From Polyangia bacterium (GTDB lineage: Bacteria; Myxococcota_A; Polyangia; Palsa-1104; JAEUJZ01): DNA of 16,577 nt. The position numbers were made by a program, and so were the translations under genes. Under the pieces are notes generated by a model. That model did no database searches. It saw nothing but the letters and a program-made list of their open reading frames with translations, and was not told the DNA's origin. The stretch is from assembly GCA_041908565.1 (NCBI GenBank), contig JAYRFD010001269.1:1-16577 (forward strand). The letters run 5' to 3'. Numbering within the stretch: position 1 is the first letter of the stretch; each line of letters opens with the position of its first letter. Below, piece after piece: positions 6,655 through 9,579 of this stretch.

Positions 6655-9579
6655 ATGAATGAGCGGGGGAGCCGGAAGATTCCAGTTACCGAGAGGCAGT
6701 TTCTCTGGGTGCAGGACGATGACAAAGGCGAGGTCACGCTGCACGTCGGGCCGACCATGGTGTCACCCACGGCTGCCGACCGCGTGGTTATCGACGATGG
6801 GGATGGTGGCTTTCGTGAAGACACCAGCAGCCGACCGCAGCGTCTGATCGAAGTTGGCGATCACCAGTACGCCGTCCTTTACAACCCACTTCTGGAAAAC
6901 GACGGCGGCCCCAACGGTCGCTTCCGCGTCGGTCGCAACGAAACGCGACCGCTGAAGAACGGCACGCGGGCCATGATCCCCGGTCCGTGCTCGTTCTACC
7001 TGCGCCCCGGACAGCGGGCCGAAGTTCGCGACGCGCACGAGCTATCGGCCAGCCAGTACTTGGTGGTGAAGGTCTACGGCCCGCTTGATGCGACGGCGCC
7101 ATATCACGATGTGACGGTGCGATCAGCCGCCATCACGCGCGCAACGGCGGAAGCCTTGGATGGTCGCCCGCAGCCCCTGCCCGATTCCGCGGCCAGCAAG
7201 CCGCTGATGCGCGGTCAGCTGATTGTGGTTCGGGGCATCGACACGCAGTTCTATATCCCGCCTTCGGGCGTCGACATTGTGCCCGACACGTCGGTCGATG
7301 AATCGGGTGCAACGCTTTCCGCTGTGACTGCACAGCGGCTGGTGGCGCAGATGCAGCAGCAGCTACAGGCTGCTCCACCCTCGCCCAAGAGCCCGCCATC
7401 GCTTCCGTCTCCAGAGCCCATGGGGCCATCGTTTGATGAGCTGGAAGAGAGCGAAGCCGAGCGTAACAAAGCCAAGCGCGCCGTCGCGCAGTATCAGTCG
7501 CAGGCGGCCTTCGTCGATCAGGCCGCGCGCACACGACAGCGCGTACAGGCTCCCGGCAAGCCGATGCCACCGCCAACGCCACCGGTGATCCCGGCCCCGG
7601 CAGCGGTCGCATCAGGTCTGGCACGTGCGGAAGTGATTGCGACTCCGCCAGTGCCCAGCGCACCACCCGCCCCGGTCGGCAACATCGACGACCTGCTGGC
7701 CAGCGACAGCGTACGCAAAGCCATCGAGCGCGAAGCGCGCCAAGCTCGCTTGGTTCGCCATGCCGCGGTGCTGGGCGAAAAAGAGTTCTGCGTGCTCATC
7801 GATCCAGATGGGAAGCGCGAGATCAAAGTAGGCCCGGCCCGCGTGTTCCCAGGTCCGTATGACACGTTCATGACCAAGGGCTCGCGCAATCGTACCTACG
7901 ACGCGTATGAGCTTCTGCCGCAGCGTGCCCTGTGGCTGCGTGTCATCAGCTCGATCTCGCGCGAAGACATGGCCGCCAAGATGCCGCGCGGCGTGCAGCT
8001 TGACAAAGAGATGTATTACCCCGGCGACGAGATCCTGCTGGCGGGGGTGTCAGGCTTCTTCTTCCCGTTCAACGAGATCGAAGTGCTGTCGCCGCAGACC
8101 GGCGAAGCGGTGGTCGGCAACGATCACAGCAGCGTGTTCATCGAAGCCATCGGCATCGATCAGAAGTCGGGCATCTATGTTCGCGATCTGACGACCGGCG
8201 AAGTGCGCCTGATCCGCGGCAAGCAGTCGTATCTGGTCGACCCGCGCAAAGAGATTCACATCACGCGCACGCTGTCGATCGCCGAATGGAACCTGTGGAT
8301 CGCGCCGTCCGAGCCGCACAAGATCACCAACAAGGCCATGATGACGCCGTGGGCGGTGTCGATCATCGTGCCGCACAACACGGCCGTGCTGGCGACATCG
8401 GCCGCGGCGCAGCGCGTGATCGAAGGCCCCTGCGTCACGCTGCTGGAATACGAAGAGACCTTGGTGCCGCTGCGCCTGTCCACTGGCACACCAAAAAGCG
8501 ACGAGCATCCGCTGCAGACCTGCTTCCTGCGCACCGTCGGCAACCGTGTATCGGACATCATCGAAGTCGAGACCAGCGACTTCGTCCGCATCCACATCCG
8601 CACCAGCTACAGCGTCACCTTCCTGCGCGACCACAAAGACAAGTGGTTCAACTGCGAGAACTACATCCAGGTGATGTGCGAGCACTTGCGTTCGATTGTT
8701 CGCAGTCGGATGCGGACGATCGCGCTCTCGGCCTTGTGGCCGCAGGTCTCGCAGGTGGTGCGCGACACCATCCTGGGACCGCGCGGTACAGAGCCGGGCA
8801 GCGAAGGTCGCAAGGGCCGCTTCTTCGCGGACAACGGCATGATCGTCACCGAAGTCGAGATCTTGGAAGCCGAGATCCAAGACAGCGTGATTGCCGAGCT
8901 GATGAAGAACGTTCAGCGCGAGTCGGTCATGCTGGCGATCGGCGATCGGCAAGCACAGGAAAAAGTCACGTCGGCCAAGCTGCGTTCGGATCTGGAAAAG
9001 CTGCAGACCGATCTGCAGATGTCCGGCAAGCAGCGGGAAGCGCAGCTCGGTGATCTGGTGCGCAAGCTGAAGCACGAAGCCGAGCTGTCGAATCTGCGCG
9101 AACGCGAGCTGGTGCAAGGCGAACAAGCGCGCTTGTCCAGCGAGCGGGAGATTCTGGAGACGCGCGCCAAGATCGAACGCGAAACGCTGGCGCAGAAAGC
9201 TCAGCTCGACGCACTGACGCGCGAAGCCAGTACCAAGGCCAGCGCGCAGGCCACGCTGCACAGCGAAGAGATCGAGCACCTGAGCCGCATTCGCGCACTG
9301 GAAATCCAGCTGCTGGATGCACAGGCGCGCGCCGTGGTGGCCGAGCGGACGTCGGTCCAGCCGCAGCTGGTTGAAGCGCTAACCGCGTTGGGCGACAAGG
9401 CTCTGCTTTCGGAAGTCGCGCACAACATGAACTTGGTCTCGCTGTTCCGCGGAAAAGAAGCTGGCGAGATTCTCAAGGACATCGTCGGCGGAACGCGCTT
9501 CGCTCCCGCCCTTGCCGAAGCCTTGAGCACCAAGCCAAGCCCTGCCAAGCCCGACACCACGGCCCCCATCAAGAAGTAA
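6655..9579 (+). CDS. Major vault protein (MVP) homolog: N-terminal MVP repeat domains, SPFH-like shoulder domain, coiled-coil cap-helix and C-terminal cap-ring region, with an internal Pro-rich insertion.
   Basis: ATG at 6655 with GGAGG 8 nt upstream. Multiple collinear blocks match recalled human MVP. N-terminus: 'IPVTERQFLWVQDDDKGEVTLHVGPTMV' vs '[28 protein letters not shown]'. Repeat: 'FCVLIDPDGKREIKVGPARVFPGPYDTFM' vs '[34 protein letters not shown]'. 'GIYVRDLTTGEVRLIRGKQSYLVDPRKE' vs '[27 protein letters not shown]'. Shoulder: 'SIIVPHNTAVLATSAAAQRVIEGPCVTLLEYEETLVPLRLSTGTPK' vs '[48 protein letters not shown]'. 'SDIIEVETSDFVRIHIRTSYSVTF' vs '[24 protein letters not shown]'. 'NGMIVTEVEILEAEIQDSVIAELMKNVQRESVMLAI' vs '[32 protein letters not shown]'. 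A long heptad-like Glu/Ala/Leu/Arg-rich helix (about 8950-9350) corresponds to the cap-helix. Confidence 0.8.
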   Translation: MNERGSRKIPVTERQFLWVQDDDKGEVTLHVGPTMVSPTAADRVVIDDGDGGFREDTSSRPQRLIEVGDHQYAVLYNPLLENDGGPNGRFRVGRNETRPLKNGTRAMIPGPCSFYLRPGQRAEVRDAHELSASQYLVVKVYGPLDATAPYHDVTVRSAAITRATAEALDGRPQPLPDSAASKPLMRGQLIVVRGIDTQFYIPPSGVDIVPDTSVDESGATLSAVTAQRLVAQMQQQLQAAPPSPKSPPSLPSPEPMGPSFDELEESEAERNKAKRAVAQYQSQAAFVDQAARTRQRVQAPGKPMPPPTPPVIPAPAAVASGLARAEVIATPPVPSAPPAPVGNIDDLLASDSVRKAIEREARQARLVRHAAVLGEKEFCVLIDPDGKREIKVGPARVFPGPYDTFMTKGSRNRTYDAYELLPQRALWLRVISSISREDMAAKMPRGVQLDKEMYYPGDEILLAGVSGFFFPFNEIEVLSPQTGEAVVGNDHSSVFIEAIGIDQKSGIYVRDLTTGEVRLIRGKQSYLVDPRKEIHITRTLSIAEWNLWIAPSEPHKITNKAMMTPWAVSIIVPHNTAVLATSAAAQRVIEGPCVTLLEYEETLVPLRLSTGTPKSDEHPLQTCFLRTVGNRVSDIIEVETSDFVRIHIRTSYSVTFLRDHKDKWFNCENYIQVMCEHLRSIVRSRMRTIALSALWPQVSQVVRDTILGPRGTEPGSEGRKGRFFADNGMIVTEVEILEAEIQDSVIAELMKNVQRESVMLAIGDRQAQEKVTSAKLRSDLEKLQTDLQMSGKQREAQLGDLVRKLKHEAELSNLRERELVQGEQARLSSEREILETRAKIERETLAQKAQLDALTREASTKASAQATLHSEEIEHLSRIRALEIQLLDAQARAVVAERTSVQPQLVEALTALGDKALLSEVAHNMNLVSLFRGKEAGEILKDIVGGTRFAPALAEALSTKPSPAKPDTTAPIKK

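What the first reader, a model, noticed from the sequence alone, without database searches (positions are those of the whole stretch)
7348..7778. About 140-residue Pro/Ala/Ser-rich low-complexity insertion splitting the MVP repeat array
Between the third recognisable MVP repeat (ending near '...VDIVPDTSVDE') and the next repeat ('KEFCVLIDPDGKREIKVGP...') lies 'QQQLQAAPPSPKSPPSLPSPEPMGPSFDELEESEAERNKAKRAVAQYQ...PGKPMPPPTPPVIPAPAAVASGLARAEVIATPPVPSAPPAPVGNIDDLL...'. It is proline-rich, predicted disordered, and has no counterpart in eukaryotic MVP. In an assembled vault the repeat domains form the barrel wall, so such an insert would protrude as a flexible arm, possibly an interaction or anchoring module. 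It also means the bacterial protein probably has fewer repeat domains than the nine of rat MVP.
Basis: seen in the sequence. Interest (0 to 1): 0.55.

Follow-up and report, generated by a model that had tools for sequence, protein, structure and literature searches.

The report
Variable insert in bacterial vault protein
A myxobacterial relative of the major vault protein carries a roughly 150-residue loop between two wall domains, made of fast-evolving proline-rich spacers around a strictly conserved arginine-rich peptide, which looks like a tethered binding motif rather than mere filler.

Summary
ORF 6655-9579 (+, 974 aa) is a bacterial major vault protein (MVP) homologue. Codons 232-374 are Pro/Ala/Ser-rich (43% versus 21% elsewhere).

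The segment is not uniformly low-complexity. By homology the insertion spans aa 212-367 (nt 7288-7755), between the equivalents of rat repeats R3 and R6. It is a mosaic of five pieces:
- a conserved amphipathic helix (217-239);
- a Pro/Ser-rich, then acidic, linker (240-269);
- a basic core (270-298) holding the motif [VI]DQ[SA]ARxRxR, with Q289, R292 and R294 invariant in 117 relatives;
- a neutral Pro/Ala linker (299-342);
- a conserved helix (343-367).

Against a 93%-identical relative, dN/dS is 0.02 in the core and 0.16-0.36 in the linkers. AlphaFold pLDDT is below 50 in the linkers and above 90 in the repeats.

Most bacterial MVP-like proteins join these two repeats with 5-6 residues. All 117 full-length Polyangia relatives carry 99-176. 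Other lineages carry unrelated inserts of up to about 430 residues at the same site.

The protein has seven repeats, not nine; R4 and R5 are absent.

Function is inferred, not shown. The most likely role is a flexibly tethered arginine-rich peptide that binds an anionic partner.

I rate it a new variant of a known kind, of moderate interest.

The parts
6655..9579 (+). Gene for a 974-aa bacterial MVP-like protein (ATG 6655, stop 9577-9579)
   Evidence: ORF list and translation. Pfam MVP_shoulder and Vault_3 above their cut-offs. PDB phmmer to rat MVP 4e-24. Foldseek to vault structures E 1e-32. 293 homologues, mostly Polyangia.
6670..7287 (+). Repeat domains R1 (aa 6-60), R2 (61-122) and R3 (123-211). 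R3 carries a conserved 44-aa excursion (143-186).
   Evidence: AF2 model pLDDT 87-96 with beta-strand pattern. The N-block profile aligns co-linearly to rat MVP 42-103, which is R2. R1 resembles R6 by hhalign at 85% probability. There is no Pfam hit for this block, so the assignment rests on structure and profile.
7288..7755 (+). The insertion as defined by homology (aa 212-367, 156 aa), lying between R3 and the R6 equivalent
   Evidence: Junction length measured with flanking HMMs: 5-6 aa in 118 of 119 proteins of the large bacterial clade, median 6 in 117 diverse representatives, and 99-176 aa in 117 of 117 Polyangia-family proteins. Junction sequences are shown.
7303..7371 (+). Conserved amphipathic helix h1 (aa 217-239, SGATLSAVTAQRLVAQMQQQLQA)
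   Evidence: AF2 helix 223-239, pLDDT 68-84. dN/dS is 0 for 217-236 against a 93%-identical relative. G218 and A226 are invariant. A similar helix starts the inserts of distant relatives P0121, P0122, P0124, P0125, P0129 and P0155.
7372..7461 (+). Linker 1 (aa 240-269): Pro/Ser-rich, ending in an acidic block (FDELEESEAE)
   Evidence: pLDDT below 50 at 246-267. 49% gaps and 10% identity in the family alignment. dN/dS 0.16. Family-wide net charge -6.6 +/- 1.9.
7462..7548 (+). Basic core (aa 270-298), holding the conserved motif VDQAARTRQRV at aa 287-297 (nt 7513-7545)
   Evidence: Q289, R292 and R294 are invariant in 117 of 117 sequences; R274 in 111, A291 in 110, R296 in 108. dN/dS 0.022 for 263-298. 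Family-wide net charge +5.3 +/- 0.9, with 6.4 K+R in about 24 aa. AF2 gives a low-confidence helix at 267-294, pLDDT 46-66. The motif regex matched only inside MVP genes in 1.07 Mb of related loci.
7549..7680 (+). Linker 2 (aa 299-342): neutral Pro/Ala-rich spacer
   Evidence: pLDDT below 50 at 293-341. dN/dS 0.36 and 43% identity to the 93%-identical relative. Family-wide Pro 29%, P+A 60%, net charge 0, length 14-57 aa.
7681..7755 (+). Conserved Arg-rich amphipathic helix h2 (aa 343-367, NIDDLLASDSVRKAIEREARQARLV), leading into the next repeat
   Evidence: AF2 helices 344-349 and 351-364, pLDDT 68-85. E358, R365 and L366 are invariant. dN/dS 0.03. Recognisable in distant relatives P0121-P0125.
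7756..8541 (+). Repeat domains equivalent to rat R6 (aa 368-418), R7 (419-494), R8 (495-561) and R9 (562-629)
   Evidence: phmmer alignment of query 371 onward to rat 274 onward. Pfam Vault_4 at 498-530 and Vault_3 at 570-624. pLDDT 94-98.
8542..9576 (+). Shoulder (SPFH-like) domain (aa 630-745), cap helix (about 746-911) and C-terminal tail (912-974)
   Evidence: Pfam MVP_shoulder at 630-743. Foldseek hits to stomatin, prohibitin and HflK/C. Continuous helix 744-911 in the full-length model.

Best explanation
The segment is a lineage-specific insertion at a permissive junction of a bacterial MVP-like protein. The junction lies between the third repeat and the repeat equivalent to rat R6, which is where eukaryotic MVP has R4 and R5.

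It is built as an excursion. Two conserved amphipathic helices (217-239 and 343-367) enter and leave the wall at nearly the same point. Between them lies a loop of about 100 residues with a conserved block pattern: a Pro/Ser-rich then acidic linker, a basic core carrying the invariant motif [VI]DQ[SA]ARxRxR, and a neutral Pro/Ala spacer.

Shown here: the position, the mosaic of selection, the disorder of the linkers, the conservation of the motif, and the restriction of this insert type to the Polyangia family.

Inferred: the spacers act only as flexible tethers. Their length and sequence drift, and their Pro/Ala content follows genomic GC bias. The selected element is the arginine-rich peptide, which folds on binding. 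It would present one copy per subunit as a ring around the particle, there to capture an anionic partner. That partner is most likely RNA or another polyanion, or else an acidic protein surface. The neighbouring acidic block could mask the motif when no partner is bound.

That the protein assembles into a vault-like cage at all is also an inference from homology.
For: - Identity as MVP-like.
- Insertion site and lineage specificity: junction 5-6 aa in 118 of 119 proteins of the large bacterial clade and median 6 aa in 117 diverse representatives, against 99-176 aa in all 117 Polyangia-family proteins. Unrelated inserts of 25 to about 430 aa occupy the same site in other lineages.
- Repeat map: query 371 = rat 274; insert-less P0179 residue 243 = rat 274; the N-block aligns co-linearly to rat R2; rat numbering of R3-R6 verified; strand pattern of the high-confidence model.
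- Mosaic selection: dN/dS 0.022 in the core and 0.00-0.03 in the helices, against 0.16 and 0.36 in the linkers.
- Invariant Q289, R292, R294.
- Disorder: pLDDT below 50 in the linkers while the repeats exceed 90.
- Conserved charge blocks across 117 sequences: -6.6, +5.3, 0.
- Pro content follows GC-type composition.
- In human vaults the cargo protein PARP4 docks electrostatically on the lumenal face of R3-R5, touching Q164, R169 and D214 (PMC12280208). Q164 is the last residue of R3, which is the position equivalent to this insertion point.
Against: - No partner was identified. No gene neighbour is conserved beyond close relatives. No neighbouring protein carries the motif. There is no Rfam RNA or tRNA in the window.
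- The insert as a whole is nearly neutral (-0.5 on average), so it is not a simple polycation.
- Arg density is lower than in classical arginine-rich RNA-binding peptides.
- AF2 did not dock the motif anywhere with confidence in the monomer (pLDDT 46-66).
- No bacterial MVP-like particle has been described in the literature searched.
Confidence: 0.5

Rival explanations
1. Inter-subunit electrostatic belt. The acidic block of one subunit pairs with the basic core of its neighbour, or the basic core docks onto an acidic patch of the wall. The ring of loops would then stabilise or gate the assembly rather than bind cargo.
For: The acidic (-6.6) and basic (+5.3) blocks are adjacent and both conserved in charge across 117 sequences, and the insert is overall neutral. 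Human vault cargo docking at the equivalent wall region is electrostatic, on an acidic stretch of R3-R4. R1 and R3 of the Polyangia proteins are net acidic (-3.5 and -4.4).
Against: Insert-less homologues with the same repeats need no such belt. Charge differences of the repeats between clades with and without the insert are small. Charge pairing alone would not require invariant Q289 and exact Arg spacing. No confident intramolecular docking appears in the AF2 monomer.
Confidence: 0.2
2. A tolerated, essentially passive spacer. The junction is a permissive loop that accumulates junk sequence. The conserved pieces serve only to keep the excursion soluble and correctly folded at its base.
For: The same site holds unrelated inserts of 25 to about 430 aa in other lineages and none in most. 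Linker sequence and length drift quickly. Pro/Ala content follows compositional bias.
Against: The central core sits in the middle of the disordered loop, far from the base. It nevertheless has dN/dS 0.022 and three invariant residues in 117 sequences, down to about 56% overall identity. A related DQSxRGR motif persists in a divergent relative whose linkers are not Pro-rich (P0121). Arg-rich clusters recur in the otherwise unrelated inserts of paralogues.
Confidence: 0.15
3. A degenerate remnant of the eukaryotic-type repeats R4 and R5, which occupy the same topological position and a similar length (108 aa).
For: Same position in the chain and comparable length.
Against: The insert is predicted helical or disordered with no beta-strand. 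It has no Pfam Vault hit even at E = 10. Most bacterial relatives have a 5-6 residue junction, so the insert-less state is the common one. Rat R3, R4 and R5 all have the pattern of the single bacterial R3, which is consistent with tandem duplication in eukaryotes rather than loss in bacteria.
Confidence: 0.03
4. An assembly, frameshift or gene-fusion artefact.
For: The window is a single short MAG-like contig: the protein is recorded on one contig of 16577 bases.
Against: The reading frame and GC3 are continuous. The same architecture and motif are found in cultured Polyangium spp. and the complete Minicystis rosea genome. Codon-level purifying selection acts in this frame.
Confidence: 0.01

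Closest known systems
Eukaryotic major vault protein (rat, human MVP; PDB 4V60, 4HL8, 9BW5)
   Same: Same overall fold and domain order: beta-repeat array, SPFH-like shoulder, long cap helix. Repeats R1-R3 and R6-R9 have recognisable equivalents.
   Different: Seven repeats instead of nine (nine per PMC13347060); R4 and R5 are missing. A 156-aa non-repeat insertion sits at their position. Sequence identity is about 15-17%. No vault RNA, TEP1 or PARP4-like gene lies nearby. Particle formation is unknown.
Bacterial MVP-like proteins described in silico (Daly et al. 2013, PMC3762200; Sokolskyi 2019, bioRxiv 10.1101/872010), such as those of Plesiocystis, Enhygromyxa, Saprospira and Microscilla
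   Same: Same family. The myxobacterial occurrence and two copies per genome were already noted. JGI annotates many relatives as 'major vault protein', and UniRef as 'MVP shoulder domain-containing protein'.
   Different: The parts of those papers read here do not mention the R3/R6 insertion hot-spot, the missing R4-R5, or the conserved Arg-rich motif. The family is far larger than reported: 1200 representatives at 50% identity, and more than 6000 proteins in one clade alone, including Patescibacteria.
Arginine-rich motif (ARM) RNA-binding peptides (HIV Rev, lambda N, as recalled from general knowledge)
   Same: A short Arg-rich peptide with Gln and Ala, embedded in a disordered region, weakly predicted helical, and conserved as an island.
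   Different: Lower Arg density: three invariant Arg plus two or three more within 24 aa. No RNA-binding evidence. The resemblance is by inspection only.
PARP4 MINT domain docking on MVP R3-R5 in human vaults (PMC12280208)
   Same: The same region of the wall is used. The interaction is electrostatic, between a basic element and an acidic surface, on the lumenal face.
   Different: There the basic element belongs to a separate cargo protein and is a folded helical domain. Here it is a peptide built into the shell protein itself, and its target is unknown.

Membership tests
Major vault protein family | MVP shoulder (SPFH-like) domain, Pfam PF11978 | tested here: met
   74.8 bits against a cut-off of 25, at aa 630-743. 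Foldseek also finds stomatin, prohibitin and HflK/C.
Major vault protein family | MVP beta-repeat domains | tested here: met
   Vault_3 scores 33.2-38.7 bits (cut-off 28.8). Vault_4 scores 21.8-23.2 bits (cut-off 22.9), which is borderline. Foldseek to murine R1-R7 crystal structures gives E 1e-14. The N-terminal three repeats are seen only by structure and profile, not by Pfam.
Major vault protein family | Long C-terminal cap helix | tested here: met
   Continuous helix 744-911 at pLDDT about 80-87. It aligns to the rat cap helix.
Major vault protein family | Nine repeat domains R1-R9 (PMC13347060) | tested here: not met
   Seven repeats, with no equivalents of R4 and R5. This holds for the insert-less bacterial relatives too.
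Major vault protein family | Assembly into a closed 78-mer cage | not testable with these tools
   No multimer prediction or coordinates were available. No experimental report on bacterial MVP-like particles was found.
Major vault protein family | Association with vault RNA, TEP1 and PARP4 | tested here: not met
   No Rfam family or tRNA in the window. Neighbours are a GT2 glycosyltransferase, a PBP1C-like protein, an RlmL-like methyltransferase, a kinase-STAND-TPR protein and an M2 peptidase. No neighbour is conserved across the family. Only about 8-10 kb around each gene was examined.
Intrinsically disordered linker carrying a short linear motif | Low structural confidence, compositional bias, and a high indel and substitution rate in the linkers | tested here: met
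   pLDDT below 50. Entropy 2.9 bits and Pro about 34%. Gap fraction 0.49-0.58. dN/dS 0.16-0.36.
Intrinsically disordered linker carrying a short linear motif | A conserved island inside the disordered region | tested here: met
   Q289, R292 and R294 are invariant in 117 sequences. The regex matches 101 of 117 sequences. dN/dS is 0.022.
Arginine-rich RNA-binding motif | Short, highly Arg-rich peptide that binds RNA | tested here: inconclusive
   The core has 6.4 K+R in about 24 aa and net charge +5.3, which is less dense than classical examples. Binding cannot be tested here.
AT-hook DNA-binding motif | Core R-G-R-P | tested here: not met
   The consensus is ARxRxR[KV]. Some members have RGRGRK or RMRGRK, but no conserved GRP.

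The most novel reading that the evidence does not exclude
Polyangia assemble a vault-like cage whose inner wall carries a ring of flexibly tethered, ARM-like arginine-rich peptides, each masked by an adjacent acidic block. These peptides would load RNA or another polyanion directly, a built-in substitute for the TEP1- and PARP4-mediated cargo attachment of eukaryotic vaults. More generally, the R3/R6 junction would be a cargo-adaptor slot that different bacterial lineages, and eukaryotes through R4-R5, have filled independently.
Probability: 0.15. Interest if true: 0.75.

Novelty: new variant of a known kind. Interest (0 to 1): 0.45.

Why it matters
The function of vaults is a long-standing open question, and bacterial MVP-like proteins are experimentally untouched. 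Three results here turn a vague 'bacterial homologue' into testable hypotheses in culturable organisms (Polyangium spp., Minicystis rosea DSM 24000):
- the bacterial proteins share a seven-repeat core;
- one junction, the place where eukaryotic MVP has R4-R5 and docks PARP4, is a hot-spot for lineage-specific insertions;
- the Polyangia version carries an invariant Arg-rich peptide on disordered tethers.

The site could also be a natural permissive position for engineering displayed or encapsulated peptides in vault-like cages.

Tried and rejected
- **Family scans of the insert.** Pfam (E up to 10), NCBIfam and PADLOC on the insert and on the N-terminal block gave no hits.
- **First AlphaFold run.** The full-length run with a shallow alignment of close relatives gave pLDDT below 50 even for the repeats, so it could not discriminate disorder. 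It was replaced by a run with a diverse 149-sequence alignment.
- **Operon partners.** The GT2, PBP1C and RlmL neighbours are conserved only in relatives of at least 87% identity. The downstream kinase-STAND-TPR gene is not conserved even in the 93% relative. De novo clustering of flanking ORFs in 78 loci found nothing shared except shadow ORFs and generic kinases.
- **Motif elsewhere.** A search of six-frame translations of 1.07 Mb of related loci gave 52 hits, all inside MVP genes. A possible 'cargo peptide' counterpart is therefore unsupported, but whole genomes were not searched.
- **RNA genes.** Rfam and tRNA scans of the window found none.
- **Charge complementarity.** Comparison between the basic core and individual repeat domains across clades showed differences too small to be informative.
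- **Internal repeat comparison by hhalign.** Only R1/R6 match clearly (85%). R3/R7 is weak (31%).
- **Cluster look-up for organism names.** Nothing was returned.
- **DNA tandem repeats.** Only a 22-bp match of minimal score, so they do not explain the low complexity.
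Full report
**1. The observation**

Window 7348-7778 lies in frame inside a 974-codon ORF (6655-9579, + strand).

The ORF encodes a real relative of the major vault protein:
- Pfam MVP_shoulder 7e-21 (aa 630-743) and Vault_3 6e-8 (aa 570-624).
- phmmer against solved structures gives rat MVP at 4e-24, with query 371-929 aligned to rat 274-843.
- A high-confidence AlphaFold model of aa 1-745 matches human, rat and rabbit vault structures at E 1e-32, and the murine R1-R7 crystal structures at E 1e-14.

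Residues 232-374 hold 43% Pro+Ala+Ser against 21% in the rest of the protein. Proline is 16.8% against 5.5% (binomial p = 1.2e-6).

The segment is not an artefact. GC3 is continuous across it. No DNA tandem repeat underlies it. The same architecture recurs in 117 full-length homologues and about 50 independent loci, including cultured Polyangium species and the complete Minicystis rosea genome.

**2. Anatomy of the segment**

The segment is a mosaic, not a uniform low-complexity stretch. An alignment of 117 full-length homologues (56-93% identity) shows two poorly aligned, gap-rich stretches: aa 241-260 (10% identity, 49% gaps) and 321-340 (13% identity, 58% gaps). They are separated and flanked by conserved pieces.

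A codon-level comparison with a 93%-identical relative (locus L001) gives these dN/dS values:

| Segment | aa | dN/dS |
|---|---|---|
| Helix h1 | 217-236 | 0.00 |
| Linker 1 | 237-262 | 0.16 |
| Core | 263-298 | 0.022 |
| Linker 2 | 299-342 | 0.36 |
| Helix h2 | 343-372 | 0.03 |
| Flanking folded domains | | 0.009-0.019 |

The core carries the motif [VI]-D-Q-[SA]-A-R-x-R-x-R-[KV] at aa 287-297 (nt 7513-7545). Q289, R292 and R294 are invariant in all 117 sequences. A291 is conserved in 110, R296 in 108 and the upstream R274 in 111.

A block pattern of charge is conserved across the family:
- Linker 1 is acidic (-6.6 +/- 1.9).
- The core is basic (+5.3 +/- 0.9, with 6.4 Lys+Arg in about 24 residues).
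- Linker 2 is neutral and 60% Pro+Ala.

The first full-length AlphaFold run used only close relatives and was uninformative; pLDDT was below 50 even in the repeats. With a 149-sequence alignment spanning three clades, the model reached mean pLDDT 86 and the profile became discriminating:
- repeats 90-98;
- helix 223-239 at 68-84;
- residues 246-267 and 288-341 below 50;
- a low-confidence helix over 267-294 (46-66);
- helix 344-364 at 68-85.

**3. Where it sits in the repeat array**

After the insert, query 371 aligns to rat 274, the start of R6. The alignment then runs through R7, R8, R9, the shoulder and the cap helix. An insert-less bacterial relative, P0179, shows the same register: its residue 243 aligns to rat 274.

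A profile of the N-terminal block hits rat MVP overall (E 9e-7). Its co-linear piece aligns profile positions 60-125 to rat 42-103, which is R2.

I checked the rat numbering by searching the PDB with the R3-R6 sequence. R3 ends at Q164, R4 is 165-217, R5 is 218-272, and R6 starts at 273.

Query R3 ends ...GQLIVVRGIDTQFYIPPSGVDIVPD. This has the same pattern as rat ...[26 protein letters not shown] (R3 end) and ...[24 protein letters not shown] (R7 end).

The strand pattern of the model fits three N-terminal repeats: 6-60, 61-122, and 123-211 with a conserved 44-residue excursion. Four repeats follow the insert.

The protein therefore has seven repeats against the nine of eukaryotic MVP (PMC13347060). 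R4 and R5 have no equivalent, and the insert occupies their place in the chain. The repeat count is a property of the bacterial family as a whole, not a consequence of the insert. I hold this assignment with moderate confidence. Pfam does not recognise the N-terminal repeats, and hhalign support for repeat types is strong only for R1/R6.

**4. Distribution**

A profile search of 1.84 billion representative proteins found 1200 relatives. I measured the junction between the end of R3 and the start of the next repeat using flanking HMMs:

| Group | Proteins | Junction length |
|---|---|---|
| Large bacterial clade | 119 | 5-6 aa in 118 |
| Diverse representatives | 117 | median 6 aa; 94 below 25 aa |
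| Polyangia family | 117 | 99-176 aa, median 131 |
| Patescibacteria clade | 68 | mixed |

The large clade includes Riflebacteria, Eremiobacterota, Desulfobacterales, Bacteroidia and others, with more than 6000 hits.

Other lineages hold unrelated sequence at the same site:
- about 100-170 residues of non-Pro, helical-looking sequence in Patescibacteria proteins;
- 225 to about 430 residues of highly charged sequence with Lys/Arg runs in P0122, P0124 and P0125.

Some MAGs encode two or three paralogues, each with a different insert type.

The Polyangia motif was found in 110 of 117 family members by a looser regex and in no representative outside the family. A degenerate form, ADQSTRGRH, survives in the divergent relative P0121, whose linkers are not Pro-rich.

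The proline content of inserts correlates with the GC-type amino-acid composition of the rest of the protein (Spearman 0.58, p = 3e-18). This is confounded by phylogeny. The window's insert ranks 109th of 117 in its family for Pro content.

**5. How it most likely works**

Shown: the insertion site, the mosaic of constraint, the disorder of the linkers, and the invariance of the motif.

Inferred from homology: R3 and the next repeat are joined by 5-6 residues in most relatives. The two ends of the insert must therefore lie close together. The conserved helices 217-239 and 343-367 then probably form the base of an excursion, and the 100-residue loop is free.

Inferred function: the loop is a tether that presents an arginine-rich peptide, which orders on binding. 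There would be one per subunit, forming a ring at a fixed height of the wall if the protein assembles like MVP. The conserved adjacent acidic block could mask the motif or compete with the ligand.

In human vaults, PARP4 docks through a basic surface onto an acidic stretch of R3-R4 on the lumenal side, contacting Q164, R169 and D214 (PMC12280208). Q164 is the residue equivalent to the insertion point. This is weak support for a lumen-accessible position and for this part of the wall being a cargo-attachment zone.

I put about 0.5 on the tethered-binding-motif explanation overall, with the nature of the partner open. An inter-subunit electrostatic belt gets about 0.2. A passive spacer gets about 0.15. 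The R4-R5 remnant and artefact readings are close to excluded.

**6. What argues against a firm functional claim**

- No conserved gene neighbour.
- No second protein with the motif in 1.07 Mb of related loci.
- No RNA family in the window.
- No confident docking of the motif in the monomer model.
- The insert is overall neutral.
- The orientation relative to the particle could not be computed.
- I found no experimental work on any bacterial MVP-like assembly. Several reviews still state that vaults are exclusive to eukaryotes.

**7. Comparison with what is known, and novelty**

Bacterial MVP homologues in myxobacteria and other gliding bacteria have been reported in silico. This includes two copies in Plesiocystis (PMC3762200; bioRxiv 10.1101/872010). 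JGI already labels many of these proteins 'major vault protein'. So the gene family is known.

I did not find the following in the parts of those texts I read:
- the seven-repeat bacterial core;
- the R3/R6 junction as an insertion hot-spot;
- the structure of the Polyangia insert with its invariant Arg-rich motif.

I rate this a new variant of a known kind, with interest 0.45. It is a solid, refinable feature that gives concrete experiments on an enigmatic particle, but it has no demonstrated function.

The most novel reading not excluded is a vault-like cage with built-in, acid-masked RNA-binding arms. I give it about 0.15 probability.

Noticed in passing
window 7147-7209 (aa 165-185, inside repeat R3): A second variable, low-complexity loop (EALDGRPQPLPDSAASKP): 40% identity and 22% gaps within the family. 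In other clades the same loop expands to 40-90 residues, sometimes with tandem peptide repeats such as GGEGQPPKDEESEGTQA twice. It sits in a conserved 44-aa excursion of R3 (143-186), which rat R3 replaces with about 11 residues.
   Followed up: partly
window 9693-13466 (+): A 1257-aa protein with a Ser/Thr kinase domain, an AAA_16/STAND NTPase and TPR repeats, directly downstream of the MVP gene. The kinase part matches PADLOC PD-T4-6, mad6 and MkoA models (E down to 2e-51). It is not conserved next to MVP even in the 93%-identical relative.
   Followed up: partly
window 14263-16248 (+): A full-length angiotensin-converting-enzyme-like M2 peptidase (Pfam PF01401, E 2e-220, 581 of 581 profile positions) in a myxobacterial contig.
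   Followed up: no
window 910-6475: A GT2 glycosyltransferase (910-2466 +), a PBP1C-like transglycosylase/transpeptidase (2524-5022 +) and a divergently transcribed RlmL-like THUMP methyltransferase (5051-6475 -). This synteny with MVP holds only in relatives of at least about 87% identity.
   Followed up: partly
loci L070, L071, L067 (paralogues) against L061, L041, L047 (orthologues) in the same MAGs: Several Polyangiaceae and Myxococcota MAGs encode two MVP-like paralogues (35-54% identity) with different insert types at the same junction. One type has a helical module followed by RGARQQPRGRDRGESRNK. Another is about 300 aa and rich in KKRFKKERRQELRSRRER. This hints at hetero-oligomeric or specialised particles.
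   Followed up: partly
proteins P0135, P0283, P0286, P0297, P0298, P0315, P0316 and others: The closest outgroup of the Polyangia family is a large set of MVP-like proteins from Patescibacteria/CPR MAGs (Parcubacteria, Moraniibacteria, Buchananbacteria), plus one labelled Nanoarchaeia. Bacterial MVP-like proteins are far more widespread than the literature read here states: 1200 representatives at 50% identity.
   Followed up: no
window 9514-9576 (aa 954-974): The C-terminal tail (AEALSTKPSPAKPDTTAPIKK) is also Pro-rich and unconserved (8% identity in the family). It corresponds in position to the disordered cap-ring end of eukaryotic MVP.
   Followed up: no
window 13457-13981 (+): A 174-aa ORF overlapping the last 10 bases of the kinase-STAND gene, with no Pfam or PADLOC hit. 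In a 64% GC contig it may be a chance ORF.
   Followed up: no
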